Counted from the first letter of the stretch, positions 2,792-58,896 are shown. The stretch is 64,000 bases of DNA from a virus (IMGVR_UViG_2588253903_000005:1-64000); one strand, 5' to 3'. Notes: generated by a model not told the origin, from the letters alone. Made by a program: numbers and translations.

Positions 2792-3991
2792 ATGTCTGAG
2801 AAACGGAAAGACAATAAAGGACGAATCTTAAAGACAGGGGAGAGCCAGAGAAAAGACCTGATTTATCAGTACCGCTACACGGATATCCGCGGAAAGCGGC
2901 AGACCATTTATTCCTCTGATTTGAAGGAACTGCGGGAAAAGGAGAAGATGATCCAGAAGCAACTTGATGAAGGGATTGACTATGCTGCTGGAGAAGTTAC
3001 CGTTATTTCCCTCTTGGAACGCTATATCAGTTTGAAGCAGGGTGTACGCTACAATACCAAAGTTGGATACAATTTTGTGCTGAATCTGATTAAGAAAGAA
3101 GATTTCGGTTACCGTCAGATAAGAGATATTAAGGTATCGGATGCACAACAGTGGATTATGAAGCTGCATAATGACGGTAAAGGGTACAGCACTATCACAA
3201 GTGTCAGAGGCGTTGTAAAGCCTGCTTTTCAAATGGCATACAATGAGGATATAATCCGCAGGAATCCTTTTGATTTCAAGCTGGTTGATGTTGTTCCCAA
3301 CGATTCACAAAAACGGATTGCCATGACTGAAGAACAGCAGGAACTTTGGATGAGATTTATTCGGGAGGATAAAACTTACTGCAAGTATTATGATGAGTTT
3401 GTTGTCCTGCTGGGAACAGGAATGCGTGTCAGCGAGTTTTGTGGCTTGACAAAAAGTGATCTTGACTTTGAAAGCCGGAAAATCCGTGTAGATCATCAGC
3501 TTGTCCGGGAACGGGGCGGAAAGTATTATGTTGAGAAAACCAAAACCGAATGCGGATGCCGCTTTATCCCTATGACAGAGGAAGTCTATCGGAGTCTGAA
3601 AAAAATCCTTATCCGCCGCAAGAGCTTGAAGACAGAAATGATTGTTGACGGGTACAGCAACTTTCTTCTGTTGGACAAGGATGATAAACCGAAAGTAGCG
3701 TTGCATATCGAAAATGAGATGCGGTGGGCAATGAAGAAATACAAGAAGCTGCATCCGGATAAACCATTGCCACACATCACTCCTCATGTGTTCCGTCATA
3801 CGTTCTGTACCAACATGGCAAACGCAGGCATGGAAATTAAGACCTTACAGTATGTAATGGGACATTCCGATGTAGGTGTTACGCTGAATGTGTATACTCA
3901 TGCCAGCTATGATCGGGCAGCGGAGCAGATGGCGAAAATTTTAGACTTCAAAGAAACTGATATGCAAGGGAAACAGAGAAAATCAGGTTGA
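2792..3991 (+). CDS. int: Tyrosine integrase, Tn916 family
   Basis: MSEKRKDNKGRILKTGESQRKD arm-binding domain; GMRVSE, HVFRHTF, MGHSD, VY catalytic motifs. Confidence 0.95.
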   Translation: MSEKRKDNKGRILKTGESQRKDLIYQYRYTDIRGKRQTIYSSDLKELREKEKMIQKQLDEGIDYAAGEVTVISLLERYISLKQGVRYNTKVGYNFVLNLIKKEDFGYRQIRDIKVSDAQQWIMKLHNDGKGYSTITSVRGVVKPAFQMAYNEDIIRRNPFDFKLVDVVPNDSQKRIAMTEEQQELWMRFIREDKTYCKYYDEFVVLLGTGMRVSEFCGLTKSDLDFESRKIRVDHQLVRERGGKYYVEKTKTECGCRFIPMTEEVYRSLKKILIRRKSLKTEMIVDGYSNFLLLDKDDKPKVALHIENEMRWAMKKYKKLHPDKPLPHITPHVFRHTFCTNMANAGMEIKTLQYVMGHSDVGVTLNVYTHASYDRAAEQMAKILDFKETDMQGKQRKSG

Positions 3992-6711: not shown

Positions 6712-6982
6712 ACAGGCGCAGATACAGCAGATGATGGGGAACCCGCAGTTTCAACAGCAGTATCAACAGAGATTAAGAGGGATGAACCCGTCGCAGATTC
6801 TAGACCAAGTAGCAAGCAATCCGCAGATGATGGATAATCCAATCGTACAGAATGTGATGAAAATGCGGAAAGCAAACGATACAGAAGGCTTGACAGGTCT
6901 TGCAGAAAACATATTTGGAGAAAAAGGACAGAACTATTCTGACTTTGAGAAGAACGCAAAGCAGTTTTTGGGGTTTAATTAA
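6698..6982 (+). CDS. Gln/Met-rich small protein
   Basis: QQMMGNPQFQQQYQQ; overlaps previous stop. Confidence 0.7.
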   Translation: MLMNRQAQIQQMMGNPQFQQQYQQRLRGMNPSQILDQVASNPQMMDNPIVQNVMKMRKANDTEGLTGLAENIFGEKGQNYSDFEKNAKQFLGFN

Positions 6983-7134
6983 CCGGACCAGAAAACGGTC
7001 ATTTTTGACGGTCAATCCATGAAAAACCTTGATTTTATGCGGGTTTTTGACCGGACCATAACTTTGAACATATTGGGTTGTGCGCACAGAAAACCTAGGT
7101 TTCCCCTTTATGGAAAATAAAGGAGGAAAATAAT

Positions 7135-8061
7135 ATGTTTAACAGTGGAAATTCTACGCCTTTCACCATGCCAGTGACTCCTGCTTATGGAAATGGCGGC
7201 GGCATGGGCGGCTGGGGAAATGATTGGATTGCACTCGCAATCTTAGCCCTTATCTTCGGCGATGGCTGGGGAATGGGTGGCATGGGCGGTATGGGAATGT
7301 TCTGGCCGTTTATGATGATGAATGGAGGCTTCGGTGGATTTGGCGGCAATGGCTGTGGTTGCGGAAATGGCAATTCCAACGCAATTCAGGCTGATATTCA
7401 GCGTGGATTTGATACCCAGTCCATTATCGGAAAGTTAGACGGCATCAACAACGGCTTATGTGACGGCTTCTATGCAGTCAACACGTCCATTCTGAACGCA
7501 CAAAGTGGCATCCAGAACAGTTTGTGTCAGGGCTTTAACGGCTTGAATACAAACATCATGCAGGGCAACTTTGGCTTACAGCAGGCTATCAACAACGCTT
7601 CTGTTGCTAATATGCAGGGACAGAACGCTTTGCAGAGCCAGTTAGCAAGCTGCTGCTGCGAAACGCAGAGAGCCATTGACGGTGTAAACTACAATATGGC
7701 TACGAATACCTGCTCTATTACCAATCAGATGAACAACAACACGAGAGACATTATCGAAAGCAACAACGCAGGTACAAGGGCAATCCTTGACTATCTGTGT
7801 CAGGATAAGATTTCTACGCTCCAAAGCGAGAATCAGGCTCTTAGGCTTGCGGCAAGTCAGGCGAACCAGAACAACGTTCTTATGGCGGCTATGGATTCCA
7901 ACAAAGCAGAAATCCTTAGAAAGACTGGGGCAGAATGTCCGACCGCAGCTTATATCGTTCAGCCTCCGCAGCCTGTCACATTCCCGACAAACTGCTGCGG
8001 CGGTGTAAATTACGCTGGATATGGCAATAACGGATGTGGCTGCAACAGCGGCTGCTGCTAA
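7135..8061 (+). CDS. Gly/Asn/Gln/Cys-rich protein with hydrophobic N-terminal segment and coiled coil
   Basis: WIALAILALIFG segment, GGM repeats, SCCCE motif, GCGCNSGCC end; 16 Cys; strong RBS. Confidence 0.85.
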   Translation: MFNSGNSTPFTMPVTPAYGNGGGMGGWGNDWIALAILALIFGDGWGMGGMGGMGMFWPFMMMNGGFGGFGGNGCGCGNGNSNAIQADIQRGFDTQSIIGKLDGINNGLCDGFYAVNTSILNAQSGIQNSLCQGFNGLNTNIMQGNFGLQQAINNASVANMQGQNALQSQLASCCCETQRAIDGVNYNMATNTCSITNQMNNNTRDIIESNNAGTRAILDYLCQDKISTLQSENQALRLAASQANQNNVLMAAMDSNKAEILRKTGAECPTAAYIVQPPQPVTFPTNCCGGVNYAGYGNNGCGCNSGCC

Positions 8062-16245: not shown

Positions 16246-16311
16246 TCCAACCCCGGCATTTCTGCCGGACGCTCCCAACTTAATGGACTTTTTAGAGCCG
16301 TTGGGACGGCT
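16246..16311 (-). ncRNA. Pistol self-cleaving ribozyme
   Basis: AGCCG-UCCCAA-CGGCU-CUAAAAAG-UCCA-UUAA-GUUGGG-AGCG-UCCGGC-AGAAAU-GCCGGG-G^U-UGGA; P1, pseudoknot, P2, P3 and the GU site are all in canonical order. Confidence 0.92.
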
Positions 16312-23007: not shown

Positions 23008-23055
23008 TTCAGCCGAAAGGCTATATAAAAATTAAAGTTTAGGAGGGATTTGTCT

Positions 23056-23697
23056 ATGACGACTGAAACCATGACCGTGCATAAGGCTCTGGCAGAATTA
23101 AAGCTGCTTGACATCCGGATTGAGAAAGCAATCGCAGAAGGTGTTTACTGCGTTGCGAACAAACATTCAAACGATAAGATAGGCGGCGTTCCGCTTGATG
23201 ATTACATTAAAATCATGCAGGGCGGATATGACAAGGCAACTGACTTTATCAACCGTCAAACGGCAATAAAACGAGCAGTCACACTTTCCAATGCTGTAAC
23301 CAAAGTCGAAATTTCTGGCGTGGAATATACAAGAGCAGAAGCCATTTGGATGAAAAATCACGGAATGGAATTTTGCAAAACACTTATGAATGCTATGCGG
23401 AGACAATATGATAAGGCTCAAATGCAAATCAATCTGGAAAACGGAAAAGACCTTGAACAGAGGGCAGAGCAGTATGTAACCGCAATCTACGGGCAGAAAG
23501 AAGGAAAGACAAATACTGCTGACATCGAAAAGGTCAAGGCAGACTTTTTAAAATCCAACCAGTACGAACTGGTTGACCCGCTCCACGTCCTTGACAAGAT
23601 TGAAGATTTGGAGAAGAAAATCAATGATTTCATGGCAGAAGTTGACAGCTCATTATCGGTCAGCAACGCCTTAACCGAAATCACGATTGAATATTAA
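23056..23697 (+). CDS. Coiled-coil protein, probable partner of the downstream ncRNA
   Basis: TVHKALAELKLLDIRI; SNA(V/L)T motif twice; VDPL; from memory loosely like DIP1984/DUF6847 proteins (unverified). Confidence 0.85.
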   Translation: MTTETMTVHKALAELKLLDIRIEKAIAEGVYCVANKHSNDKIGGVPLDDYIKIMQGGYDKATDFINRQTAIKRAVTLSNAVTKVEISGVEYTRAEAIWMKNHGMEFCKTLMNAMRRQYDKAQMQINLENGKDLEQRAEQYVTAIYGQKEGKTNTADIEKVKADFLKSNQYELVDPLHVLDKIEDLEKKINDFMAEVDSSLSVSNALTEITIEY

Positions 23698-23715
23698 AAA
23701 TTAAATGAATTTTAT

Positions 23716-24107
23716 CCACTGTTTACCGAAAACCCCAAACTACAATTCATACGTCTTTTGCAGATACAGACATATGTAAAACAATAAAGAAATCTGCAAA
23801 CTTCAATGGACGAAGATAATATGAATTGGTCTTGAAAACCAAATTTGCATAAACAATGTGTCGGCGGTTCGATTCCGTCCAAGTCTTCGGACTTGTAGCT
23901 CAGTCGGGAGAGCGATTGTAAAAACAAAACGCACTGTAAAGATTAAAGAGTAAAGCTCAAATCTTAAAGCTGAAAGGTCAAAGTTTATTTTCTTCAAAGT
24001 TGAAAGAGCAAAGGTAAAAGACAAAAGTTTTACAAAATCCTTGGGAAATGTTTATTCGGGCTAATTGTAATTGCTGATGGGTTTAACACAAGGCTGGTAA
24101 ATGGTGG
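23716..24107 (+). ncRNA. ~390-nt structured ncRNA with permuted tRNA module, anticodon-arm mimic and heptamer array
   Basis: 13-bp 5'/3' helix (23716-23728 with 24095-24107), nested AAACCC/GGGTTT and TACAATT/AATTGTA helices; no coding ORF on +. Confidence 0.85.
23937..24029 (+). repeat. 12 tandem heptamers, consensus NAAAGNN (7 + 5, split by a 9-nt U-rich linker)
   Basis: TAAAGAT TAAAGAG TAAAGCT CAAATCT TAAAGCT GAAAGGT CAAAGTT [TATTTTCTT] CAAAGTT GAAAGAG CAAAGGT AAAAGAC AAAAGTT. Confidence 0.9.
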
Positions 24108-24157
24108 GTTATATGAATTATCGGCGGCAGCTTGTTGGTCTCGTTGCCGCCGGTTTT

Positions 24158-25775: not shown

Positions 25776-25848
25776 AACAACGGGATAGCCCGACGGGGCG
25801 AAAAGCAAAACCGTGATTGCCTGTCCGTTGTTTCAACTAATATCACGG
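25776..25848 (+). ncRNA. Candidate pseudoknotted RNA
   Basis: Long stem 25776-25788/25821-25832; loop CCGTGAT complementary to ATCACGG at 25842. Confidence 0.45.
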
Positions 25849-26487: not shown

Positions 26488-26538
26488 CAATAGGCTAGGG
26501 TAGCTCCCAAAAAGCGTCCTCCAACGCCTGCCTATTGT
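26488..26538 (+). promoter_or_regulatory. Three-way-junction leader upstream of the replication initiator
   Basis: CAATAGGC/GCCTATTG, GGG-TAGCT-CCC and GCGT-CCTCCA-ACGC helices. Confidence 0.45.
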
Positions 26539-26583
26539 TTTTATAAATTTGGAGGATTAGAAAAATGGATTGGAGGTCATTTT

Positions 26584-33398: not shown

Positions 33399-34601
33399 AT
33401 GAGTGATTTAAAAATATTTACAGAAAACATAGAACCGCAGGCATTAAATCAGATTTACACGCTGATTAAGCAACCGGCATTTGCGGATTGCAAAGTGCGT
33501 ATCATGCCTGACGTACACGCCGGAGCTGGATGTGTTATCGGTTTTACTGCTGATTTGGGAGATAAGGTAATTCCAAACATCGTCGGAGTGGATATTGGCT
33601 GCGGCATGGAAACTGTAGAACTTGGCAACACAGACATAGACCTTGCAAAACTCGACGAGGTAATCAGAAAATATGTTCCGAATGGCAGAAATGTGCATGA
33701 AACAGAAGATAACTTTTCGGAAATCATCATCAATCAGCTTTATTGCGAAGACCGCCTAAAAAACGTGGATTGGTTGAAAAGAAGCTGCGGTACGCTTGGC
33801 GGAGGAAATCATTTTTGCGAAGTGGACATTGACGATGACGGAAATAAATACCTTGTCATTCATTCGGGAAGTCGGAACATTGGAAAGCAGGTTGCGGAAA
33901 TTTATCAGCAGATGGCGATTGACGATTTAAGCGGAGCGAACAGCCTTGAAGAAGAAACAAAGAAACTGATTGAAGATTACAAACGGACAGGCAGACACAA
34001 GGATATTCAGAGAGGGATTGCGGAGTTAAAACGGAAATTTCAGCCGAAAATTAGTGTGCCAAAAGAATTATCCTATCTGACAGGCGAACACAGGGAAATG
34101 TATCTGCACGACATGAAGTTGTGTCAGAAATTCGCAAGTGAAAATAGATACAGGATTGCAAAAGAAATATCTTATGGCATGGGCTGGGATATAGATAGAT
34201 TTTCAAATGGATTTGAAACAATCCACAACTACATTGAGCATGACACAAACATCGTCCGCAAGGGCGCAATATCGGCGAAAGAGGGCGAAACAGTCCTAAT
34301 TCCTATCAATATGCGTGACGGCTGTATTATCGGCAGGGGAAAAGGTAATGCAGACTGGAATTATTCAGCGCCGCATGGGGCAGGACGGATAATGAGCCGT
34401 AGCAAAGCAAAAGAAACGGTATCGCTGGAAGAATTTGAACAGTCCATGCAAGGAATTTATACAACATCTGTTAATCGGTCAACGATTGATGAAAGCCCTA
34501 TGGCATACAAGCCGATTGAGGAAATTGTAGCGAATATACAAGATACGGTTGAAATCATGAAGATTATCAAGCCGATTTATAATTTTAAGGCGAGTGAGTG
34601 A
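33399..34601 (+). CDS. rtcB: RNA ligase RtcB
   Basis: MPDVHAG, VGVDIGCG, GTLGGGNHF, HSGSR, HN, RKGA, HGAGR, DESPMAYK. Confidence 0.97.
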   Translation: MSDLKIFTENIEPQALNQIYTLIKQPAFADCKVRIMPDVHAGAGCVIGFTADLGDKVIPNIVGVDIGCGMETVELGNTDIDLAKLDEVIRKYVPNGRNVHETEDNFSEIIINQLYCEDRLKNVDWLKRSCGTLGGGNHFCEVDIDDDGNKYLVIHSGSRNIGKQVAEIYQQMAIDDLSGANSLEEETKKLIEDYKRTGRHKDIQRGIAELKRKFQPKISVPKELSYLTGEHREMYLHDMKLCQKFASENRYRIAKEISYGMGWDIDRFSNGFETIHNYIEHDTNIVRKGAISAKEGETVLIPINMRDGCIIGRGKGNADWNYSAPHGAGRIMSRSKAKETVSLEEFEQSMQGIYTTSVNRSTIDESPMAYKPIEEIVANIQDTVEIMKIIKPIYNFKASE

Positions 34602-41227: not shown

Positions 41228-41923
41228 ATGAGCAAAGAAAGCAGAAAAATCCCAATGAACCTACAGTTTTTTGCAGAGCCGGGAGAGCAAGACGGACAGC
41301 AGACACCGCCAGCAGATGACGGAAAAGAGCAAGACGGACAGCAGACACCGCCAACAGATGACGGAAAAGAGCAAGACGGCCAGCAGACACCGCCAGCAGA
41401 TGACGGAAAAGAGCCTACTGTTCAGGAACTTATGGTAGAACTCGCCAAGGTGAAAAAGGCACAGGAGCGCGCCGCAAGCGAGGCGGCAGAGTACAAGAAA
41501 AAGTACAACGCAAAGCTGTCTGAAAAAGAAAGGGTAGACGCAGAAAAGGCAGAGCGAGAAGCGGAAAGGGAAGAACAATTCCAGCAGCTTTTGAGGGAAA
41601 ACAAAATCAACAAACTGGAAAAGTATTACCTTGGCGAGCTTAAATACACGCCGGACGAAGCAAGCCAGATGGCGATCGCAGAGGTTGACGACGATTTTGA
41701 TGCAAAATTGAAAATCCAGCTTGCCGTAGACAAGAGGAAAAAGAAAGAGTATGAAGCGGAATTTATTAAATCAAGACCGCAGATGAATGCCGGAACGGGT
41801 GACGGAAAGGTTGTTACATTAGAACAGTTTACAAAGATGGGGGTAGCGGACAGGGTTAAACTCAAACGCTCCGACCCAGACGGATATGAAAGATTAAGGA
41901 AAGCAGAACAAGGAGGAAAATAA
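41228..41923 (+). CDS. Capsid scaffolding protein
   Basis: MNLQFFAE motif, coiled coil, position before capsid. Confidence 0.85.
   Translation: MSKESRKIPMNLQFFAEPGEQDGQQTPPADDGKEQDGQQTPPTDDGKEQDGQQTPPADDGKEPTVQELMVELAKVKKAQERAASEAAEYKKKYNAKLSEKERVDAEKAEREAEREEQFQQLLRENKINKLEKYYLGELKYTPDEASQMAIAEVDDDFDAKLKIQLAVDKRKKKEYEAEFIKSRPQMNAGTGDGKVVTLEQFTKMGVADRVKLKRSDPDGYERLRKAEQGGK
41285..41410 (+). repeat. Three 42-bp in-frame tandem repeats (EQDGQQTPP[A/T]DDGK)
   Basis: Direct reading of the sequence. Confidence 0.95.
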
Positions 41924-43027: not shown

Positions 43028-43372
43028 GTGGGCGGTATGCTGACCTTAGAATATGAGCTATTGGAAGATTTGAAAGAGGAATTATCCGCAACAGACCCCA
43101 AGTTTAAGCCTGAACTTATAAAGCTAAAAATCAAAAATGCAATAAGGGAAGTGAAACGGGCAAGGAACTACCCGAAACACTATACAGAAAGCGCAATCGT
43201 GGAAGATTTGGAAAACTACTATTCCAACATCCGAAACATTGCGCTTTTTGATTACAACATGATAGGTGCAGAGGGGCAGTCGTCATCATCCGAAAATGGA
43301 ACATCGAGGAATTTCATAGACCGGGATAAGCTGTTTAGCGGCATTATACCGTTGTCAAGGACAGGGAGGTAA
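43028..43372 (+). CDS. Head-tail connector
   Basis: GAEGQSSSSENGTSRNF; position after capsid. Confidence 0.75.
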   Translation: MGGMLTLEYELLEDLKEELSATDPKFKPELIKLKIKNAIREVKRARNYPKHYTESAIVEDLENYYSNIRNIALFDYNMIGAEGQSSSSENGTSRNFIDRDKLFSGIIPLSRTGR

Positions 43373-43376
43373 TAAA

Positions 43377-44210
43377 TTGAAATATCTTGAATTTGATATA
43401 AAAAATATGGCAATCAGCCGAACAGCAGGAGATAAAACCGCGCTTATCAGCGGCGCAGTTAATTATTTTGGACTGCACTTTAATTTTGGTGATGAATTTG
43501 CAGAAATCCCAGGCACAAAATCGGTTGAGTTTTACAAAAACCGCAACAAAATCAGGGTTGACCTTGTTGACAATCAGTGCGCCGTTCCTAATGAATTGCT
43601 GACTGATAACAAAAATTTTGAAATGCGAGTTATCAGTGGAAATACAATCGGCACAACATGGACAAGCGTAGGTATCACAGAAAGTGGAATCGTCATGCCA
43701 GAAGAACCAGAAGAAGAAGCACCGTCTGGCATGGAATATGTAAAAACCGCAAGCGGCGAAAATGCCGCTCCATATCTTCGAGCGAGCACAAACGGTCTTG
43801 AATATTCTCAAAATGGTGAAGACTGGAATAGCGGCGTATCAGGCGTACCAGAAGTGCCGTCAAGACCAAAAGGTTCAGTATACCTTCGCAAAAATGGGGA
43901 CTGGGTAAATGCAGAAGAATATCTTGCGGAAAACGGCGGAGAAACAAATGTCATTAACGAAGTACAGGTTGACGGAACTGCACTGCCAGTCACGGACAAA
44001 TCAGTAAACATTGACCTGTCTGCATATGCAAAAACAGCCGACCTTGCAAGCGAATATGCCACAAAAACGGAGGTTGCGGCATTGCAGACCTTGACAGGCA
44101 CAGCGGAAACGGTAACAGATGTTGATTACAGCACAACGGATATATCTGATGTTATAACATCATACAACGCATTACTTTCTGCATTACGTGCAAGAGGGGT
44201 AATTGCATAA
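43377..44210 (+). CDS. Structural/fibre protein with BppU-like N-terminus
   Basis: GAVNYFGLHFNF N-terminus; YNALLSALRARGVIA head-fibre-like end. Confidence 0.55.
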   Translation: MKYLEFDIKNMAISRTAGDKTALISGAVNYFGLHFNFGDEFAEIPGTKSVEFYKNRNKIRVDLVDNQCAVPNELLTDNKNFEMRVISGNTIGTTWTSVGITESGIVMPEEPEEEAPSGMEYVKTASGENAAPYLRASTNGLEYSQNGEDWNSGVSGVPEVPSRPKGSVYLRKNGDWVNAEEYLAENGGETNVINEVQVDGTALPVTDKSVNIDLSAYAKTADLASEYATKTEVAALQTLTGTAETVTDVDYSTTDISDVITSYNALLSALRARGVIA

Positions 44211-50815: not shown

Positions 50816-53800
50816 GTGGCAAGAATGGCAACGATAGACAGATTGGATATACAAATAGAAGGTTCTGCACAAAAAGCAAATGTCGCAATAAATGACCTTA
50901 TAAAAAATCTCGACAGACTTGCCAATTCCTTAAAAATAGACACAAGCGGATTAGAGAAAATCGGAAAATCTTTGAATTTAAGTGGCATTGATAAGGCTGC
51001 TAAAAATATGCAATCCCAAACGCAGAAAGTATCAAAATCCCTGTCTCAAATTACGGAGCAGTACAAGGATTTGGGCAAAGGATTTGAAATAAAAGGCTCT
51101 ACGCAACAGATACAGAAGCAAATTGACAGCCTTACAAACAAACTTGCAAATGCAAAACTGGCGAAAGATGATTTTGAAGCGTCCGGGAAGGCCAATTTAG
51201 GTGGTTACGAAACAGCAGTTAAAAATGTAATAAAGTATACAAACCAGATTGAAAGCCTGAAAAAGCAACTTGAGGGATTGCAGACAGCACAGCCGAAACT
51301 TGATTTCAATGTAGCTGGCGCGGAAAGCCAAACAAAATATCTAGTTGAATACAAAAAGCAATTAATAGATTTCAAAAATGATATGAAATCCATAGGTGAT
51401 GTTTATGGCGGGTTGCAGAATGTTCCAAAAGGAGGACTAGATACTCTAATTCAAAATTTAAAGCAATCCATAGAAGAATTAAAGCAATCCTACCCGCAGG
51501 CAACGAATGTTATTTCCGCATTTGAAAAAGAGTTGCAAAAGCTACAAGGTATTTCTTCTGGACTGACAAAAGAACCAATTAGAGCCAATATTGATACAAG
51601 CTCTATTGACAAAGTAAGTGAAAAAATAGCAGAGCTAAAAAACAGGTTTGAAAAAGTTGGATCAGATTTTAAGTTTACCGGGAATTTTGAACAGTTAAAT
51701 ATTGAAATAGAAAAAGTTTATTCCAAGCTGAACGAATTAAGAACCAAAGAACAGGAAATGATTTCTGCCGGACAGGTAAATACATCTGGATTTGAACAGT
51801 TGCAGGAATCACTTGCAAGAGTTGGAAATAAGTTCGGAATAATGCAGGATTTAAGGGACAGAACAGAAGCATTTAACCAATCCTTGCAACAATTAAGAGT
51901 TCCAGAAATCCGAGAAGAAAATCTTACAAAACTTCAAAATTCCTTAAGAAAAACAGAAGCAGACACAGAAAAGCTAAGAACAAAACTTTCTAATGCAATA
52001 ACAATGGGAAGGATTGTTCCAAACATAGACGACAGCGGATTCCGAAAACTTACGGAGCAAATTGCGTTATCAGAAAAACAGGCAGAAGCATTAAGGCAGA
52101 AAATACAGGAAGTGGGAGGCGATACAAGCGGAACCGGAAGCATAATGGACAGGCTGAAATCTTCTCTGTCAAATGTTTCGAGCCAGTCAAGCAAAACATC
52201 TTCTGCGACAAACATATTATCAAAAAATATAAAAAACCTTTCCTCAACAATGAGCGGATTCAGCAAGTCAGCAGGAAAAGCGGTCACAGGGCTGAAATCA
52301 TTCGCAAGACAAGCATTGTCTGCTATGGGGATATATCTTGGGGTTTATGGGGCGGTAAGGGGGCTTAAATCATCGTTAGAAAGCTCCATGAATTACATAG
52401 AAATCCTTAATTATTTCAATGCCGCATTTGGACAGGTGGCAGAAAAGGCAGATTACAGTAAGTTTGAAGAAATGGGATATGATTCAGCAGAAGCATATTA
52501 CAATTCTTTTTCTGAAAGGGCAAAAGAATTAACAGAAAAAATGTCCGGGTTTACAATGAACGAAAGCGGGATGTTGGAATCCGGAGGAATGAAAAGCCTT
52601 GGAATTGACCCTACGAAACTTATGAACTATCAGGCGATGTTTGGGCAGATGTCTAGCTCTATGGGAGCGACAAGCGAAAATGCATTAAGGCTGTCAACAG
52701 TCCTTACGGAAATTGGGGCTGACCTGGCTTCTGTAAAGAACATGAAGTTTGAAAAAGTCTGGAACGATATGGCTTCCGGGCTTGCGGGAATGAGCCGGAC
52801 ACTGGATAAGTATGGGGCAAATATCCGAAACGTGAACTTGCAGCAGAAGTTAAACGAACTTGGAATCAGTGCAAACATATCCGCATTAAACCAGAATGAC
52901 AAGGCTCTTTTACGTACAATTATTCTTCTTGACAGTACGAGATATGCATGGGGTGATTTGGCAAAAACAATCAATCAACCTGCTAACCAGTTAAGGTTGC
53001 TCCAATCAAATTTCAGCAACCTTGGGAGGGCTATAGGAAACATATTTTTGCCAATCGTTGCAAAGGTTTTACCATACATAAATATGCTTGTGCAGGCATT
53101 GACGAGGCTTGCAGAATGGCTTGTAAAACTCCTTGGATTCGAGGGATTCGACTGGGGAGGTGGCGGGGGCGGAAACTCTACCCCGGATATACTTGGTGAC
53201 ATATACGACAATGCAGAGGATGCATCTGGCGCATTGGATAAAGTATCTGAATCCGCAAAAAAAGCGAAGGCAGGTCTTAGGGGATTTGATGAGTTAAAAA
53301 CAATCAACATGCCAGAATCCAATGAACCAGACGATGGAGCAGGGGGAGCGGGAACTGGAGGAATTGACAGCGGACTTCTGCAAGGAGCATTAGATAGCAT
53401 ACTGGACGAATATCAGGCGGCATGGGACAAGGCTTTTTCCGAAATGGAAAACAGGGCTAATACATTCGCTGATAACGTGGCGAAAGCGTTTAAAGAAAAA
53501 GGTCTCTATGGTGTTGGGGAATATTTCAGTAAAAGCATAACAAGCGCATTGGAGAGCATACCCTGGGATTCTGTATATGAGGGAGCAAGAATGTTTGGAA
53601 GCGGTTTAGCTTCCTTTTTAAATGGGTTGATTTCCCCGGATCTGTTCGGTGCACTTGGGAAAACGATTGCAGGCGCGTTGAACACAGCGTTGCATTTCCT
53701 TGATTCATTTGGGGAAACATTTGATTTTACCAATTTCGGCGTTTCCATAGGAGCCGGGATAAATTCTGCATTAGGAGGGATTGACTGGAAAACCGCGCTT

Positions 53801-56800
53801 TCAGCGGCTAAGAAATGGGGTACTGGAATTGGAAACGCTATCAATGGATTTTTCAGAAAAACGGATTTTTCCACCGTTGGAAGCACGTTGGCAAATGCCT
53901 TAAACACTGCGATACAGCTTGCACTATCATCAGGGAAAAAGATAGATTTTGAGTTAATAGGAAAGAAAATTTCAGACGGAATCAATGGATTTTTCAAGAC
54001 GTTCAGGGCTGATAAATTAGCGAAAGCCATAAATGTTTGGATGAAGGGCGCGCTGAAAACAGTTTCTACATTACTAAAGAAAACGGATTTTGATATGATT
54101 GGGAAGAAAATAGGAAAATTCCTTGCAGAACTTGATTTGACAGGAGCATTGAAAGGGCTGGCGAGCGTTGTATGGGAGGCGATAAAGGGAGCGTTTAACT
54201 TATTATCGGGAATTTTTAAATCCGCACCAATTGAAGCGTCTTTGCTTGTTGCATTTTCGTTCCTGAAATTTACAAAGGTTGGGCAGATTTTTACTTCCAA
54301 TCTTTTTTCTATTTTAAAAGGCGGGGCAACACAATCTTTAAATAAGTTTGCAAGTTTCTTCAATGGGGGATTGCTTGGAGTTATCGGAACAGCGGTAGCA
54401 GCATTTGCAGAATTTAGCGTTGTTTCTGATTCAATAGAGAATTTAACGCTCGGAACAGGAGATTTTATAGCAGAAATAGGTAAAATAGCAGGGGTTGTAG
54501 GGATTGCTTGGGCAGGAATGTCCGCTATACTTGGATTCCCAGCAGGAACCATAGCTACTGCAATTGTTGGTATAGTAGGAGCGATAAAAGGGATAAGCGA
54601 TGCATTTAAGGATATAAAAGCTGAATCCGCAATGCAATCAATAGCGAACGCATTGAAAAAACCAGGTGGAACACCGATTGAAGATTTGACAGAGTTGTAT
54701 TCGGATACAATTGGAAAAATAAAAAGCGGATTTGATGACATAAATGTAAAGTCAGAAGAACTTAAAACAACACAGACTAATGCAGAAAAAACAAGCAAAA
54801 AAATTGACCTCATAAAGTTTTCGATAGAAAACGGCTCAAAGGCTACGAAAGAAAAAACAACAGAAATAAAACAGGCGTTCGACAGTCTATTAAGCGATTC
54901 AAAAAGCATTTTTGAACAAGAATACGACGTTATCATGACGGGAATATCTGGTTCGTTGCAGCAATCGTTGACGGATGCTGGATATTCTGTTGAGCAGATT
55001 GTCGGAGTGATGGATTCGCTAAAAACGGAACATCAGAAAGAGATAGAGGAAATAGAGAAAAATAACGAGAAGTTGAAAACCAGTTTTGAAAATGGGAAAA
55101 TTTCTATCCAAGAGTATGCTGCAAAAATGCTAGAAAATTACGAAAAACTGGGCGAGATAACGGGAAAGACAGACGAGTATTCATCTGCCATTGAAAAGGT
55201 ATCAGAGGCGGCGAAAGGCGTTGACTTAAGCGGAATAGTAAACAAAGACAATACAATTAACACAGGTCTTTTAGCAGAACAGTTCAAGGGGTTAAGCACA
55301 ACCGCTACCGAGGCTAAGCAATCAATAAACGATTCATCTGCGGGGTTAACTGCGGCACTAAATGATTATGCAAAAGAAGCAGAAAGAACCAAAAATTCAG
55401 AAGCCGCAACAGCGATTAGCGATATGCTATCAGCAGAAGAAGCGAATGTGAAATCAGCAACGGAAAGTGTAAACAATCAGTTAACAGAATACGGAAACCA
55501 AGTACAATATGCAGTTTTGGAAAAAATTCCAAGCGTGGTAGACGAAGCGGTTGCAGATTATGAGAACAAAAGCCCTATATACAAATTCTTTAATTCAGAA
55601 GAAAGCCATGTGCAATCCGCATTAGAGGAATACCAAAAAAATGTAATAGACCCGTCTACGGAAGAATTAGAACGTTTATATTCGGAAGCAGGAATTGAGG
55701 GGGCTACTTTTTCCTCTAATGCTGGGAAAGAAATAATAGATGCAATGTTTGATGAAAACATAGTGTCAAGCGGGGAGCTTACCTACTATTCAAAGACATT
55801 GAAAAGCAATTATACAAAAGTAGTTAATAATGCTGTTGATGAAATAAAGAAGGATGCTAAGAAAAAATCTAAGCAAATAGGAAAAAATGTAGATGAAGGT
55901 ACGAGGGATGGAGTAAACGAAAACCTTGGACTTGCAACTGGAGCAATAGGCGGCATGGCAAACCAAATGCTTAGAAAGGCAAGGGAAACCCTTGGAGTGC
56001 ATAGCCCATCTACAAAATTTAAAGAAATCGGTGGATATGTCGTAGAAGGAATGAAGGGAGGGATTTCTGGAAAATGGGGAGAATTCAGCGAGTTTTGGGC
56101 AAAGAAGCATGATTACATTATAAATAAATTTAATGGAATAAAAGAAAAATTCGGGACAAAAGGAAAGGATATAATATCAGGAATCCGGTCTGGAATATCT
56201 GATAAATGGAACGATTTCAGTACGTTTTGGGGAGAAAAGAAAAGTAGTATCATAGATAAATTCAATGATATAAAAGAAAAATTTAATACAAAAGGTGGAA
56301 ATATAATTTCTGGCATAAGGTCTGGCATATCTGGGAAATGGGGTGAATTTAATTCTTATTGGACAGAAAGAAAAAATTCTATAGTAGAGAAGTTTAAAAA
56401 TATCAAAGAATCATTCCAGGGAAAGGGTGGCGATATTATATCTGGGCTAAAAAGCGGTATTTCCAGTAACTGGGATGGTTTTGTTGGATGGTGGGCAGAA
56501 AAAATCAAGGCAATGGTGAATGGGATACTGGATGGAATAAACTGGGTTCTTAAAAAAGTTGGCTCTAGTACACAGCTAGACCCATGGGAGCCAAAAGGAT
56601 TTGCAAAAGGAGCCAACGGACTTCCGCAAGACACCATAGGAATCGTAAACGACCAGAAAGGAAGCACATACAAAGAACTTATCGTGCCGCCACATGGAAA
56701 GCCATTCATCCCAGAGGGCAGGAATGTCATGCTTCCCATGAAAAAAGGGACAAAAATCATGCCAGCCCGCCAGACGAAGGACTTCATGGAGAAAATGAAC

Positions 56801-57766
56801 AATATGCCGCATTTTGCCGGAGGTATTGGTGATTTCTTTAAAGGTGCATGGGCAAAGATATCAGAGTTTACCGGGAATATCTGGGACTACATTTCAAACC
56901 CAGGGAAGATTTTGCAGATTGCATTTGACAAATTCACGGATTTATCCGGGATGCTTGAACCCGTGCTTTCCATAGCTACAGGGGCTGCAAAAACGCTTCT
57001 GGATGGCGCAACAGGTTTTATAAAGAAAATGTTCGACGAAAACCTTACGGTGCAGTATAACCCGTCCCAAGGAGTGGAACAGTGGCGCGGTCTTGCGACA
57101 AAGGCGTTGCAGATTACAAACCAGTTCACAGCACCAAACTTAACCGCCTTGCTAACACAAATGCAGCATGAATCCAGTGGAAATCCAAAGGCAATCAATC
57201 TATGGGATTCTAATGCAAAGAAGGGAACCCCATCCAAAGGACTTATGCAGGTCATTGACCCGACGTTCCGGGCGTATGCATTAGCACCACACAATAAAGA
57301 TATATGGGACCCGCTTTCAAACATGATTGCGGCCATCCGGTACACAGTATCGCATTATGGCAGCTTATATTCCGGATGGACTGCGAGAGGATATAAAGGT
57401 TATGCCTCTGGAATAGGAAAAATAAACCTTGCAGACCTGATACCAAAATACAGGGCAGGCGGGTTCCCGGAAGATGGATTGTTCTATGCAAACCATACAG
57501 AACTTGTTGGAAGATTCAGTAACGGACAGACAGCAGTAGCGAATAACGGGCAGATTACGCAGGGGATTGCAGAAGCAATATACCCAGCGGTATACAATGC
57601 GGTTTCTTCTGCAATGAGAAATAATGGAACATCTGGAAGTGTGGACATATCTCTACAATTAAACCTGGACGGGGATGCAGTTTATAAAAATGTTGTGAAA
57701 CGGACAAGGGAAGGGAGGGATAGGAATATAGGTGGTAGACTTGTTCTTGCGGAAGAGGTTTATTAA
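50816..57766 (+). CDS. Tape measure protein with C-terminal lytic transglycosylase (SLT) domain
   Basis: 2316 aa; Trp-periodic 40-aa repeats; QHESSGNPKAINLWDSNAKKGTPSKGLMQ. Confidence 0.93.
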   Translation: MARMATIDRLDIQIEGSAQKANVAINDLIKNLDRLANSLKIDTSGLEKIGKSLNLSGIDKAAKNMQSQTQKVSKSLSQITEQYKDLGKGFEIKGSTQQIQKQIDSLTNKLANAKLAKDDFEASGKANLGGYETAVKNVIKYTNQIESLKKQLEGLQTAQPKLDFNVAGAESQTKYLVEYKKQLIDFKNDMKSIGDVYGGLQNVPKGGLDTLIQNLKQSIEELKQSYPQATNVISAFEKELQKLQGISSGLTKEPIRANIDTSSIDKVSEKIAELKNRFEKVGSDFKFTGNFEQLNIEIEKVYSKLNELRTKEQEMISAGQVNTSGFEQLQESLARVGNKFGIMQDLRDRTEAFNQSLQQLRVPEIREENLTKLQNSLRKTEADTEKLRTKLSNAITMGRIVPNIDDSGFRKLTEQIALSEKQAEALRQKIQEVGGDTSGTGSIMDRLKSSLSNVSSQSSKTSSATNILSKNIKNLSSTMSGFSKSAGKAVTGLKSFARQALSAMGIYLGVYGAVRGLKSSLESSMNYIEILNYFNAAFGQVAEKADYSKFEEMGYDSAEAYYNSFSERAKELTEKMSGFTMNESGMLESGGMKSLGIDPTKLMNYQAMFGQMSSSMGATSENALRLSTVLTEIGADLASVKNMKFEKVWNDMASGLAGMSRTLDKYGANIRNVNLQQKLNELGISANISALNQNDKALLRTIILLDSTRYAWGDLAKTINQPANQLRLLQSNFSNLGRAIGNIFLPIVAKVLPYINMLVQALTRLAEWLVKLLGFEGFDWGGGGGGNSTPDILGDIYDNAEDASGALDKVSESAKKAKAGLRGFDELKTINMPESNEPDDGAGGAGTGGIDSGLLQGALDSILDEYQAAWDKAFSEMENRANTFADNVAKAFKEKGLYGVGEYFSKSITSALESIPWDSVYEGARMFGSGLASFLNGLISPDLFGALGKTIAGALNTALHFLDSFGETFDFTNFGVSIGAGINSALGGIDWKTALSAAKKWGTGIGNAINGFFRKTDFSTVGSTLANALNTAIQLALSSGKKIDFELIGKKISDGINGFFKTFRADKLAKAINVWMKGALKTVSTLLKKTDFDMIGKKIGKFLAELDLTGALKGLASVVWEAIKGAFNLLSGIFKSAPIEASLLVAFSFLKFTKVGQIFTSNLFSILKGGATQSLNKFASFFNGGLLGVIGTAVAAFAEFSVVSDSIENLTLGTGDFIAEIGKIAGVVGIAWAGMSAILGFPAGTIATAIVGIVGAIKGISDAFKDIKAESAMQSIANALKKPGGTPIEDLTELYSDTIGKIKSGFDDINVKSEELKTTQTNAEKTSKKIDLIKFSIENGSKATKEKTTEIKQAFDSLLSDSKSIFEQEYDVIMTGISGSLQQSLTDAGYSVEQIVGVMDSLKTEHQKEIEEIEKNNEKLKTSFENGKISIQEYAAKMLENYEKLGEITGKTDEYSSAIEKVSEAAKGVDLSGIVNKDNTINTGLLAEQFKGLSTTATEAKQSINDSSAGLTAALNDYAKEAERTKNSEAATAISDMLSAEEANVKSATESVNNQLTEYGNQVQYAVLEKIPSVVDEAVADYENKSPIYKFFNSEESHVQSALEEYQKNVIDPSTEELERLYSEAGIEGATFSSNAGKEIIDAMFDENIVSSGELTYYSKTLKSNYTKVVNNAVDEIKKDAKKKSKQIGKNVDEGTRDGVNENLGLATGAIGGMANQMLRKARETLGVHSPSTKFKEIGGYVVEGMKGGISGKWGEFSEFWAKKHDYIINKFNGIKEKFGTKGKDIISGIRSGISDKWNDFSTFWGEKKSSIIDKFNDIKEKFNTKGGNIISGIRSGISGKWGEFNSYWTERKNSIVEKFKNIKESFQGKGGDIISGLKSGISSNWDGFVGWWAEKIKAMVNGILDGINWVLKKVGSSTQLDPWEPKGFAKGANGLPQDTIGIVNDQKGSTYKELIVPPHGKPFIPEGRNVMLPMKKGTKIMPARQTKDFMEKMNNMPHFAGGIGDFFKGAWAKISEFTGNIWDYISNPGKILQIAFDKFTDLSGMLEPVLSIATGAAKTLLDGATGFIKKMFDENLTVQYNPSQGVEQWRGLATKALQITNQFTAPNLTALLTQMQHESSGNPKAINLWDSNAKKGTPSKGLMQVIDPTFRAYALAPHNKDIWDPLSNMIAAIRYTVSHYGSLYSGWTARGYKGYASGIGKINLADLIPKYRAGGFPEDGLFYANHTELVGRFSNGQTAVANNGQITQGIAEAIYPAVYNAVSSAMRNNGTSGSVDISLQLNLDGDAVYKNVVKRTREGRDRNIGGRLVLAEEVY

Positions 57767-58680: not shown

Positions 58681-58896
58681 TAGACAGGAGGATTCTTTCC
58701 ATACCTTTAATGAAAATTGGTGTATGGAATTTAGTTTATTATAAAGAAAAATACAGAAGAGCTGGCATACCTAACTATGAAGAAAAGCTTGTTAATGTTG
58801 GTTACATCTGGGGATAGGCTGACGAGCCGAAAAGTACAAGCCTTAGTACCTGCCCCGGTTTGACATAAGGCAGTTTGCGGAAAGGCGGTAAAGAGC

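What the first reader, a model, noticed from the sequence alone, without database searches (positions are those of the whole stretch)
23937..24029. Twelve single-stranded NAAAGNN heptamers in strict 7-nt register
Seven units, a 9-nt U-rich hinge, then five units. The fixed AAAG core with variable flanks suggests repeated binding sites for a protein oligomer (one subunit per 7 nt, nucleocapsid/TRAP-like), not a coding or CRISPR repeat.
Basis: partly seen in the sequence, partly recalled or inferred. Interest (0 to 1): 0.75.

Follow-up and report, generated by a model that had tools for sequence, protein, structure and literature searches.

The report
Twelve-heptad strand in phage RNA
The twelve 7-base repeats are real and form the unpaired middle of a roughly 400-base structured phage RNA that always follows one small helical-protein gene, from gut phages to coliphage T5. 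It is probably the protein-binding strip of an undescribed RNA-protein particle.

Summary
Window 23937-24029 holds 7 heptamers, a 9-nt U-rich hinge and 5 heptamers. Eleven units have AAAG and unit 4 has AAAT.

The array is not a free-standing repeat. It is the unpaired core of a ~400-nt non-coding RNA (about 23714-24109). Only the first 86 nt of this RNA are catalogued, as the orphan Rfam motif RAGATH-27. Covariation supports a 15-bp end-closing helix, two further long-range helices, an H-type pseudoknot and a 3' stem. No conserved pairs fall in the array.

The RNA always lies directly behind a 213-aa helical protein gene (phrog_1491, mislabelled 'tail fiber'). This held in 91 of 91 metagenomic phage loci and in 10 of 10 cultured lineages checked, T5 among them. 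In the reverse test it held in 43 of 45 informative loci.

Period 7 and block lengths are conserved (49-51 nt, hinge, then 40-41 nt). About 12 units recur in every lineage. The family-wide core is U|YA rather than AAAG.

The partner gene's own leader carries 2-4 of the same heptads abutting its Shine-Dalgarno sequence (15 of 29 genes against 0 of 164 controls).

Best reading (inferred, about 0.5): the array is a multivalent binding strip for the co-encoded protein, with feedback at the gene's ribosome-binding site. The function is untested.

This scan noted the same family earlier on other genomes.

The parts
23026..23046 (+). Leader of the partner gene. It holds two heptads (TAAAAAT TAAAGTT) in register with the next 7 nt, TAGGAGG, which contain the Shine-Dalgarno sequence. 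The ATG is at 23056.
   Evidence: Read from the sequence. In-register heptads before the SD occur in 15 of 29 homologous genes and 0 of 164 control ORFs in the same loci (Fisher 9e-15).
23056..23697 (+). Partner protein gene. It encodes 213 aa, is helical with two short beta elements, and shows an internal duplication (LSNAxTKV / LSVSNAxTEI).
   Evidence: phrog_1491 at E 3e-50, with no Pfam hit. The AF2 model has pLDDT 83. There is no convincing PDB fold match. 1813 homologues were found, and 742 phage records hold the protein.
23714..23728 (+). 5' strand of closing helix P1 (AUCCACUGUUUACCG).
   Evidence: RNAduplex across 29 lineages gives a cognate mean of -20.4 kcal/mol, against -12.2 for non-cognate pairs and -10.9 for shuffled tails. 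The strand sequences differ completely in T5, Klebsiella and Vibrio phages.
23715..23798 (+). RAGATH-27 (RF03100) match, the only catalogued part of the RNA.
   Evidence: 92.1 bits against a gathering score of 76.1.
23730..23747 (+). 5' strands of two further long-range helices: AAACCC (23730-35) and UACAAUU (23741-47).
   Evidence: They pair with 24079-84 and 24063-69. The UACAAUU helix is fully paired in 16 of 18 lineages, with compensatory changes such as ACU/AGU, AUC/GAU and CAUAACA/UGUUAUG.
23748..23798 (+). H-type pseudoknot. S1 is 23748-56 with 23768-76. S2 is 23759-65 with 23792-98. Loop 3 is A-rich.
   Evidence: 87.5% of cells are paired. 14 of 16 pairs show changes on both sides. 0 of 500 shuffles reach the covariation score, and slid controls pair at 25-44%.
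23826..23842 (+). Anticodon-arm-like hairpin with a CUUGAAA loop, in the variable insert.
   Evidence: Read from the sequence. The loop is conserved and the stem differs in L124. It also appears as part of a weak tRNA-Sec-like match.
23853..23919 (+). Circularly permuted tRNA-like module in the variable insert. Order: T arm, acceptor hairpin capped by UUCG, D arm, closing stem ACAAU/AUUGU.
   Evidence: It matches the tRNA-like part of the YrlA model RF02553 (36.3 bits, model positions 23-85 of 114). The closing stem covaries in L124 (CAGAA/UUCUG). It is absent from the closest relative, Dulem virus 39, and present at the same site in Erwinia phage Special G.
23937..23985 (+). Heptad block I, units 1-7.
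   Evidence: This block is 49-51 nt in 27 of 27 aligned homologues.
23986..23994 (+). U-rich hinge (UAUUUUCUU).
   Evidence: It is 9-13 nt in 26 of 27 homologues. Lactococcus phage AM9 has a hairpin at this position.
23995..24029 (+). Heptad block II, units 8-12.
   Evidence: The block plus its linker is 40-41 nt in 24 of 27 homologues.
24030..24093 (+). 3' domain. It holds a conserved linker (UUACAAAAUC), the stem CCUUG (24039-43) with CAAGG (24089-93), and an inner hairpin whose loop AAUUGUA (24063-69) pairs back to the 5' region.
   Evidence: RNAalifold finds both-sided changes in 6 of 8 pairs, with stem variants CUUCG/CGAAG, CCCAG/CUGGG, CCAAG/CUUGG and CUCCG/CGGAG.
24095..24109 (+). 3' strand of closing helix P1 (UGGUAAAUGGUGGGU).
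24122..24157 (+). Hairpin (CGGCGGCA...UGCCGCCG) followed by GUUUU, a possible weak terminator just before tRNA-Ser.
   Evidence: Read from the sequence. The consensus scan does not call it. Clear intrinsic terminators follow the RNA in the Vibrio, Pseudomonas, Bacillus CM1 and Lactococcus phage versions.

Best explanation
The array is the conserved, unpaired central strip of a ~400-nt phage non-coding RNA that works together with the protein encoded directly upstream.

Shown: the RNA is closed by long-range helices between its 5' end (the 'unpaired' part of RAGATH-27) and its 3' domain. It carries an H-type pseudoknot and a variable insert, which here is a permuted tRNA mimic. It then displays about twelve 7-nt units as 7 + hinge + 5. 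The units read YAAAGNU in this window and U|YA across the whole family. The number and spacing of units are held constant by selection.

Inferred: each unit is a docking site for one protein subunit or one half of a pseudo-dimeric subunit, so the RNA assembles a defined multi-copy RNA-protein particle. The most likely binder is the co-encoded 213-aa helical protein. That gene's own leader carries 2-4 of the same heptads running into its Shine-Dalgarno sequence. This suggests the free protein represses its own translation, while the 12-unit RNA takes up the protein. That logic is known from T4 gp32 and its operator and from CsrA and CsrB.

What the particle then does is unknown. A role connected with tRNA is plausible, given the tRNA-cluster setting and the tRNA-like inserts.
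For: The array is real and non-random.

The gene, RAGATH-27, array and 3' domain occur together in 91 of 91 IMG/VR loci found through the protein alone. They also occur together in 10 of 10 cultured lineages checked: Dulem virus 39, T5, Klebsiella VIK251, Vibrio Thalassa, Bacillus CM1, Bacillus G, Pseudomonas phiPsa381, Erwinia Special G, Lactococcus AM9 and Salmonella SSE121. Most of 47 bacterial-genome loci show the array too.

Reverse test: of 51 loci fetched by an RNA pattern alone, 43 have the gene just upstream on the same strand, 6 are too short to tell, and 2 carry a transposon insertion.

RNA-level structure around the array is supported by covariation: P1, the two further long-range helices, the pseudoknot and the 3' stem.

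No conserved pairing falls inside the array.

Period 7 is kept in all 29 lineages, with a mean lag-7 autocorrelation of 0.43 against 0 in a coding control.

Block lengths are 49-51 nt, a 9-13 nt hinge and 40-41 nt, although partner proteins are only 32-66% identical.

Hairpins are tolerated only between units (L184, CM1 and AM9).

The same heptads lie in register before the SD of the partner gene in 15 of 29 lineages and in 0 of 164 control ORFs.

Precedent: the T4 gene 32 operator combines a pseudoknot with an unstructured run of UUAAA/UAAA repeats covering the RBS, bound cooperatively (PMC535899).
Against: No experiment of any kind supports binding.

The protein is mildly acidic (pI 5.0-6.5 in most members). 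It has no Pfam domain and no recognised RNA-binding fold. The best structural match is an uncharacterised protein, 3kdq, at Z 10.6 and rmsd 8 A.

In distant members (Vibrio Thalassa, Bacillus G, a GC-rich Oscillospiraceae locus) AAAG is lost and only U|YA plus the period remains. The recognition element is therefore small.

Two-unit heptad chains occur at roughly the chance rate elsewhere in the window (25 found against about 17 expected). The leader signal therefore rests on its recurrence across lineages, and these are not fully independent.

The count of 12 units in the cultured phages was made by eye, with subjective boundaries.

Adjacency of gene and RNA would also fit a purely cis role of the RNA as a 3' UTR.
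Confidence: 0.5

Rival explanations
1. The array is a sponge or landing pad for a host protein that binds single-stranded RNA. Candidates are ribosomal protein S1 or the 30S subunit, cold-shock proteins with footprints of about 7 nt, Hfq, or an RNase. The phage protein would have a different job.
For: The family spans hosts from E. coli to Bacillus and Lachnospiraceae, which fits a universal host target. The units are A/U-rich and unpaired. The phage protein is acidic and has no known RNA-binding fold. Multi-site sponge RNAs such as CsrB and CrcZ are an established kind (own knowledge).
Against: Only the partner gene carries the heptads at its ribosome-binding site, against 0 of 164 other ORFs. 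A general host-factor site or translation enhancer would not be so exclusive. The strict gene-RNA linkage is not needed for a host-factor sponge.
Confidence: 0.15
2. The array is a decoy or substrate for an endoribonuclease. That could be a host defence toxin cutting at UA/CA steps or A-rich motifs, or an anticodon nuclease. Each 7-nt unit (N-U-Y-A-A-A-G) would mimic a 7-nt anticodon loop with U33.
For: The family-wide conserved element is a pyrimidine-A step every 7 nt. The locus sits in phage tRNA clusters. It sometimes carries a tRNA mimic. This phage encodes RtcB. Phage tRNA regions are known to counter tRNA-targeting defences (own knowledge; Azam et al. 2024 is cited in PMC11879866).
Against: A decoy needs neither a fixed number of units, nor a conserved 7 + 5 split, nor unit-specific sequence conservation. 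It also does not explain the heptads on the partner gene's leader. Known anticodon nucleases recognise folded tRNA, not linear strands (own knowledge).
Confidence: 0.1
3. The array is a flexible spacer of fixed length. Selection keeps it unpaired and about 100 nt long so the flanking domains sit at the right distance. The periodic A-rich pattern would be a way of avoiding structure, not a set of binding sites.
For: Length is the most tightly conserved property. The core motif degenerates in distant members. No pairing is predicted.
Against: Avoiding structure does not need a 7-nt period, a conserved Y at position 1 and U at position 7, or units that keep their individual identity across homologues. 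Examples are unit 4 CAAAUNN and unit 7 CAAAGUU. It also does not explain the leader heptads.
Confidence: 0.1
4. The heptads make RNA-RNA contacts, either A-minor or similar tertiary contacts within the RNA or between copies. The RNA would then self-assemble into a multimer, as recently shown for the large ornate RNAs ROOL, GOLLD and OLE.
For: The RNA is large, knotted and closed by long-range helices. It occurs in phages near tRNAs, like ROOL and GOLLD (own knowledge; bioRxiv 10.1101/2024.12.08.627333 is listed). A-rich strands can dock into helix minor grooves.
Against: No receptor helices with matching periodicity were found. The array has no complementary partner in the RNA. The dedicated protein gene and the leader heptads point to protein recognition.
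Confidence: 0.07
5. The array is a DNA-level site, such as replication-origin iterons, a packaging site or a recombination site made of 7-bp repeats.
For: The locus lies in the early and replication region, 2.5 kb upstream of a replication-initiator gene. Direct repeats are typical of origins (own knowledge).
Against: The array is always on the sense strand of the upstream gene. It is embedded between RNA helices with compensatory changes and is followed by intrinsic terminators in several lineages. A 7-bp spacing does not phase with the DNA helix. The location relative to replication genes is not conserved; in T5 and the rV5-like phages it lies in tRNA clusters.
Confidence: 0.03

Closest known systems
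RAGATH-27 RNA motif (Rfam RF03100, an orphan candidate sRNA of 86 positions)
   Same: The window matches it above the curated threshold at 23715-23798 (92.1 bits). It is physically part of the RNA described here.
   Different: The Rfam model annotates one hairpin and treats the 5' 45 nt as unpaired. Here that stretch forms three long-range helices with a 3' domain about 350 nt away, and the hairpin is half of a pseudoknot. The array, the 3' domain and the partner gene are outside the model. The T5, Klebsiella, Vibrio, Bacillus CM1 and Pseudomonas phage versions match no Rfam family at all.
Bacteriophage T4 gene 32 translational operator (a pseudoknot plus an unstructured run of UUAAA/UAAA repeats, bound cooperatively by gp32)
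   Same: An H-type pseudoknot lies 5' of an unstructured A-rich strand with short repeated motifs. The same motifs lie over a ribosome-binding site. The gp32 site size is about 7 nt (site size from own knowledge; operator anatomy from PMC535899).
   Different: Here the long array is not contiguous with the pseudoknot or with any ribosome-binding site. It sits inside a closed RNA downstream of the gene. The partner protein is a helical bundle, not an OB-fold single-strand-binding protein. The number of units is fixed at about 12.
CsrA/RsmA with the CsrB/RsmZ sponge RNAs (and Hfq/Crc with CrcZ)
   Same: A protein recognises a short motif that overlaps Shine-Dalgarno regions, and a non-coding RNA with many copies of that motif takes the protein up. 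This is the logic proposed here.
   Different: Those motifs (GGA; AANAANAA) sit mostly in hairpin loops at irregular spacing, and their number varies. Here the units form a linear, strictly periodic strand of fixed number. The RNA is encoded in cis directly behind the protein gene.
TRAP-binding triplet arrays (trp leader) and HutP-binding NAG-N4 arrays (hut leader) of Bacillus
   Same: These are periodic short motifs on single-stranded RNA, each bound by one subunit of a ring-shaped oligomer. HutP sites have the same 7-nt period (NAG plus 4 spacers), and 11 of 12 units here fit NAG-N4 (own knowledge of HutP and TRAP; units).
   Different: TRAP uses (G/U)AG with 2-3 nt spacers, a period of 5-6. 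HutP uses two sets of three sites. Both act as attenuators in 5' leaders of amino-acid operons and are host proteins. Here AG is not conserved across the family, the array has 12 units, and the context is a phage non-coding RNA.
Bacterial Y RNA (YrlA, RF02553) with Ro/Rsr
   Same: It is an RNA closed by pairing of its two ends that carries a tRNA-like module. The module here matches the tRNA-like part of the YrlA model.
   Different: The Ro-binding stem of the model is not matched, and the score of 36 is below the gathering score of 69. No TROVE/Rsr gene is in this phage record. The tRNA-like module is an optional insert, absent from the closest relative. YrlA has no heptad array.

Membership tests
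RAGATH-27 (RF03100) | Match to the covariance model at or above the gathering score | tested here: met
   92.1 bits against 76.1, covering model positions 1-86, at 23715-23798. The array itself lies outside the model.
RAGATH-27 (RF03100) | The model covers the functional RNA unit | tested here: not met
   The model's 'unpaired' 5' part pairs with sequence about 350 nt downstream. The unit therefore extends to 24109.
YrlA / bacterial Y RNA (RF02553) | tRNA-like module (T arm, capped acceptor stem, D arm) | tested here: met
   Model positions 23-85 are matched at 36.3 bits, E 3e-6.
YrlA / bacterial Y RNA (RF02553) | Conserved Ro-binding stem formed by the ends, with a full-model score above gathering | tested here: not met
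   Model positions 1-22 and 86-114 are unmatched, and the score of 36.3 is below 69.
YrlA / bacterial Y RNA (RF02553) | Ro/Rsr (TROVE) gene in the same genome | tested here: not met
   PF05731 is not found in the 75.6-kb phage record. The host genome was not searched.
TRAP-binding site | Nine to eleven (G/U)AG triplets separated by 2-3 nt | tested here: not met
   The spacing here is 7 nt and the core is AAAG or U|YA.
HutP-binding site | Two sets of three NAG motifs with 4-nt spacers in the hut leader | tested here: not met
   The register fits (AAG-N4 in 11 of 12 units). However, there are 12 units in a phage RNA with no hut context, and AG is lost in distant members.
T4 gene 32-type operator | A pseudoknot immediately followed by unstructured UUAAA/UAAA repeats that include the regulated gene's ribosome-binding site | tested here: inconclusive
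   The pseudoknot, the repeats and repeats at the partner gene's ribosome-binding site are all present. They are in three separate places rather than one contiguous operator.
T4 gene 32-type operator | The binder is the phage single-strand DNA-binding protein | not tested
   The adjacent protein is a helical bundle. No search for an SSB gene or its binding was made.
Microsatellite or CRISPR-type repeat | Near-identical units whose number varies between relatives (microsatellite), or repeats of about 30 nt separated by spacers (CRISPR) | tested here: not met
   Units differ from one another and keep their individual identity. Block lengths are constant in 27 homologues.
Type III toxin-antitoxin RNA (ToxI-like) | Tandem repeats of 34-45 nt upstream of an endoribonuclease toxin gene | tested here: not met
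   The units are 7 nt and the array lies downstream of a non-nuclease-like helical protein gene.

The most novel reading that the evidence does not exclude
The gene and RNA together make a previously undescribed, widespread phage RNA-protein particle. In it, a knotted scaffold RNA displays exactly twelve heptad docking sites (7 + 5) for a new kind of helical RNA-binding protein. The particle would act on the host's or phage's tRNA or translation apparatus, for example as a tRNA-linked counter-defence or tRNA-handling machine. This would explain its home in tRNA clusters from T5 to Bacillus phage G and its recurrent tRNA-mimic inserts.
Probability: 0.3. Interest if true: 0.9.

Novelty: new variant of a known kind. 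Interest (0 to 1): 0.8.

Why it matters
The element gives a concrete, testable anatomy to an orphan Rfam motif. It also reveals an unannotated structured RNA of about 360 nt, with a dedicated partner protein, in the classical model phage T5 (NC_005859, about 43141-43505, behind gene T5.085). The same pair occurs in rV5-like, Bacillus, Lactococcus, Pseudomonas, Vibrio and jumbo Erwinia phages and in gut prophages.

A fixed number of periodic single-strand docking sites in a closed RNA is unusual among bacterial and phage RNAs. If the sites bind the co-encoded protein, this would be a new RNA-binding fold and a new self-regulating RNA-protein particle. It could be studied at once in E. coli with T5.

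The work also corrects a widespread annotation error. 'Tail fiber protein' for phrog_1491 is unsupported by the protein's location or fold.

Tried and rejected
- **Coding reading:** rejected. There is no + strand ORF of 40 aa or more over the array. TAA falls in all three frames in units 1-3. A 1-nt indel separates the window from a close relative. The minus-strand 73-aa ORF 23803-24024 is taken as spurious because it overlaps RNA helices that covary.
- **tRNA intron, group I intron or tmRNA reading of the tRNA-like piece:** rejected. ARAGORN finds neither a tRNA nor a tmRNA there, and Rfam gives only the partial YrlA match.
- **RAGATH-27 5' region as a promoter:** considered because of a TACAAT box, then rejected. 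That hexamer is one strand of a covarying long-range helix.
- **Generic AAAG-heptamer scan of viral contigs:** it mostly returned unrelated microsatellites from giant viruses and others. Only 5 of the roughly 80 loci inspected were true relatives (L004, L092, L117, L010 and L106).
- **Lys-codon / tRNA-Lys anticodon pairing idea (AAA, AAG):** dropped, because distant members lose AAAG.
- **Fold searches for the protein (PDB Foldseek, BFVD, VIA-align wide), Pfam and the ESM Atlas:** these returned only uncharacterised phage proteins and generic helical bundles.
- **Literature searches** for RAGATH-27, T5.085, phrog_1491 and heptanucleotide-repeat phage RNAs found nothing. The Weinberg 2017 main text does not mention RAGATH, and its supplements are not held.
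- **Single-sequence MFE fold:** it pairs bits of the array weakly. This was disregarded in favour of the family consensus.
- **End-duplex energies:** these were uncalibrated and are not used.

Full report
**1. The observation**

There are seven 7-nt units, a 9-nt hinge (UAUUUUCUU) and five more units. Eleven of the twelve units contain AAAG, and unit 4 has AAAT.

AAAG has a frequency of 0.0138 per nt in the window. The only period-7 AAAG chains of three or more units in the whole 64 kb are the three in this array. No other period from 3 to 13 gives more than three, and period 14 peaks on the same array. The lag-7 autocorrelation of A is 0.66, and 0 of 10,000 shuffles reach it. Tandem Repeats Finder reports both halves.

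**2. What surrounds it**

All features lie on the + strand. In order they are:
- a 213-aa ORF (23056-23697)
- a match to the orphan Rfam motif RAGATH-27 (23715-23798, 92 bits)
- a tRNA-like module that matches only the tRNA-like core of the Y-RNA-like family YrlA (23855-23917, 36 bits, below threshold)
- the array
- a further conserved stretch
- two tRNA-Ser genes.

The record is a 75.6-kb provirus. It carries integrase, anti-repressor and replication genes. Its host is a Lachnospiraceae bacterium, judged from a 96%-identical copy of the protein in a Lachnospiraceae MAG.

**3. Homologues**

The closest public phage is Dulem virus 39. It keeps RAGATH-27, the array and the downstream stretch but lacks the tRNA-like module.

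I searched IMG/VR with the upstream protein, first alone and then as a profile. This gave 88 loci whose proteins are 44-66% identical to the window's. With the window, Dulem virus 39 and three loci from an earlier scan, the set analysed was 91 loci. Every one has the same order downstream of the gene:
- RAGATH-27
- a variable insert
- CUG followed by about 7 units
- a U-rich hinge
- about 5 units
- the motif UUUAYMAAAUCC
- a stem and a conserved tail.

The protein (phrog_1491) also occurs in 742 cultured-phage records. I opened nine further lineages: T5, Klebsiella VIK251, Vibrio Thalassa, Bacillus CM1, Pseudomonas phiPsa381, Bacillus phage G, Erwinia Special G, Lactococcus AM9 and Salmonella SSE121. 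In all of them an unannotated gap of 360-550 nt follows the gene. Each gap contains the same architecture, including a run of about 12 units at 7-8 nt spacing.

The five lineages scanned (T5, VIK251, Thalassa, CM1 and phiPsa381) match no Rfam family apart from tRNA. In 47 bacterial-genome loci found through the protein, most again show the array.

The reverse test used the 3' domain as a DNA pattern and fetched 51 loci without using the protein. Of these, 43 have the gene just upstream on the same strand and 6 are cut too short to tell. The remaining 2 are identical, and in them a TnpB/IS605-type element has replaced the RNA's 5' end.

**4. It is an RNA, and the array is its unpaired core**

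Five structural elements are supported by compensatory changes.
- **Closing helix P1.** It joins the 5' end of RAGATH-27 (23714-23728) to 24095-24109. Over 29 lineages the cognate duplexes average -20.4 kcal/mol, against -12.2 for non-cognate pairs and -10.9 for shuffled tails. The strands are entirely different sequences in T5, Klebsiella and Vibrio phages.
- **Two further long-range helices.** These are UACAAUU with AAUUGUA, and AAACCC with GGGUUU. They link the 'unpaired' part of RAGATH-27 to the 3' domain.
- **An H-type pseudoknot inside RAGATH-27.** 87.5% of cells are paired, 14 of 16 pairs show changes on both sides, and 0 of 500 shuffles reach the score. Slid controls pair at 25-44%.
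- **The 3' stem CCUUG/CAAGG.** It has variants CUUCG/CGAAG, CCCAG/CUGGG, CCAAG/CUUGG and CUCCG/CGGAG.

RNAalifold places no pair in the roughly 100 array columns. Intrinsic terminators follow the RNA in several lineages. A DNA-level reading is therefore very unlikely.

**5. What is conserved in the array**

- **Period.** Period 7 is present in every lineage. The mean lag-7 autocorrelation is 0.43, against 0 in a coding control.
- **Length.** In 27 aligned homologues the first block is 49-51 nt. The hinge is 9-13 nt in 26 of them. The second block plus linker is 40-41 nt in 24. The partner proteins in these loci are only 32-66% identical to the window's.
- **Register.** Some units are 8 nt long, so the register is not strict across the family.
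- **Unit identity.** Units keep individual identities, for example unit 7 CAAAGUU. This is unlike slippage-driven repeats.
- **Insertions.** Extra hairpins occur only between units, as seen in L184, CM1 and AM9.
- **Core.** In distant or GC-rich members AAAG decays, and what remains is a U|YA step every 7 nt.

**6. Link to the protein**

The protein has no Pfam domain. It folds confidently as a helical bundle with two short beta elements and an internal duplication (pLDDT 83). It matches only uncharacterised phage proteins and no informative solved structure. It is mildly acidic. The label 'tail fiber protein' attached to it in many records has no support.

Another note of this scan gave a lead about the gene's own leader, and I tested it. 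In the window, TAAAAAT TAAAGTT is followed in register by TAGGAGG (23026-23046). Across lineages, 15 of 29 partner genes have two to four in-register heptads within 55 nt of the start codon. None of 164 other ORFs with a Shine-Dalgarno sequence in the same loci do (Fisher 9e-15).

Such two-unit chains are not rare elsewhere in the window. The signal is therefore their recurrence at this one gene in lineages whose leaders cannot be aligned.

**7. Mechanism**

What is shown: a conserved, closed, pseudoknotted RNA with a fixed-length, periodic, unpaired strip. It is obligatorily linked to one protein gene, and that gene's ribosome-binding region carries the same units.

What is inferred: the units are docking sites for that protein. 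The RNA would assemble a defined multi-copy particle, and free protein would feed back on its own translation.

The nearest precedents are these:
- the T4 gene 32 operator, a pseudoknot plus UUAAA/UAAA repeats over the ribosome-binding site, bound cooperatively (PMC535899)
- CsrA with CsrB
- the TRAP and HutP arrays.

The element fails the defining features of each of these families. It is a functional analogue at most.

The purpose of the particle is unknown. A tRNA connection is hinted at by three things: its home in tRNA clusters, the recurrent permuted tRNA-like inserts, and a phage RtcB gene.

The rivals are a host-factor sponge, a nuclease decoy or anticodon-loop mimic, a pure spacer, RNA-RNA assembly, and a DNA site. 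They are listed with their tests.

**8. Novelty and standing**

Only the first 86 nt are catalogued, as RAGATH-27 with function unknown. I found no paper on the full RNA, on T5.085 or on phrog_1491 in the library searched. That library is incomplete.

Earlier follow-ups in this same scan reached the same reading on other genomes. I re-derived the main points here independently. Their mention of cyanobacterial tRNA arrays was not checked.

Noticed in passing
window 23853-23919 and 23826-23842; L124 about 3730-3890; L216 about 1660-1725: A circularly permuted tRNA-like module (T arm, capped acceptor hairpin, D arm, closing stem) is inserted at the same place in the RNA in this window, in L124/L125 and in Erwinia jumbo phage Special G. 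It is absent from the closest relative. In the window and in L124 an anticodon-arm-like hairpin with the loop CUUGAAA precedes it. It looks like a mobile or recurrent tRNA-mimic insert.
   Followed up: partly
L246 about 6846-7440 and L263 about 6898-7492: An IS605-family TnpB-like ORF, with its downstream RNA, is inserted into the RAGATH-27 5' region. It removes the P1 5' strand and the partner gene. These are the only RNA copies found without the gene.
   Followed up: partly
NC_005859 (phage T5) 43505-44143, and many other phage records: The partner protein (T5.085, phrog_1491) is widely annotated as 'tail fiber protein'. Its early-region and tRNA-cluster location and its helical-bundle model give no support for this, so it is probably a propagated misannotation.
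   Followed up: partly
window 16246-16311 (-): There is a pistol self-cleaving ribozyme match (54.4 bits against a gathering score of 34.5) in the leftward early region.
   Followed up: no
window 25778-25848, 26488-26555, 58807-58871 (+): There are three int-alpA RNA matches (43-49 bits against a gathering score of 35.8). One directly follows tRNA-Cys and one lies just before the replication-initiator gene.
   Followed up: no
window 33399-34601 (+): An intact RtcB RNA ligase gene is present (PF01139, 159 bits), while no Ro/TROVE gene is in the record. Dulem virus 39 also has rtcB about 2 kb downstream of its copy of the RNA.
   Followed up: partly
window 41284-41414 and 56120-56374: A near-perfect 42-nt tandem repeat (3.1 copies, 96% matches) lies inside an ORF. 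A 132-nt repeat (1.9 copies) lies inside the 2316-aa ORF 50816-57766.
   Followed up: no
window 23056-23697 (protein residues about 74-86 and 199-211): The partner protein has an internal duplication. Two LS(V)SNAxT(K/E)(V/I) motifs each end a long helix and start a beta strand, so each monomer may offer two equivalent surfaces.
   Followed up: no
L282 (Candidatus Heritagella contig), downstream of the gene: In this GC-rich version of the array every unit begins UCA (UCACCGC UCAACCU UCAAGCA and so on). This shows that U-C-A at a 7-nt period survives when AAAG does not.
   Followed up: partly
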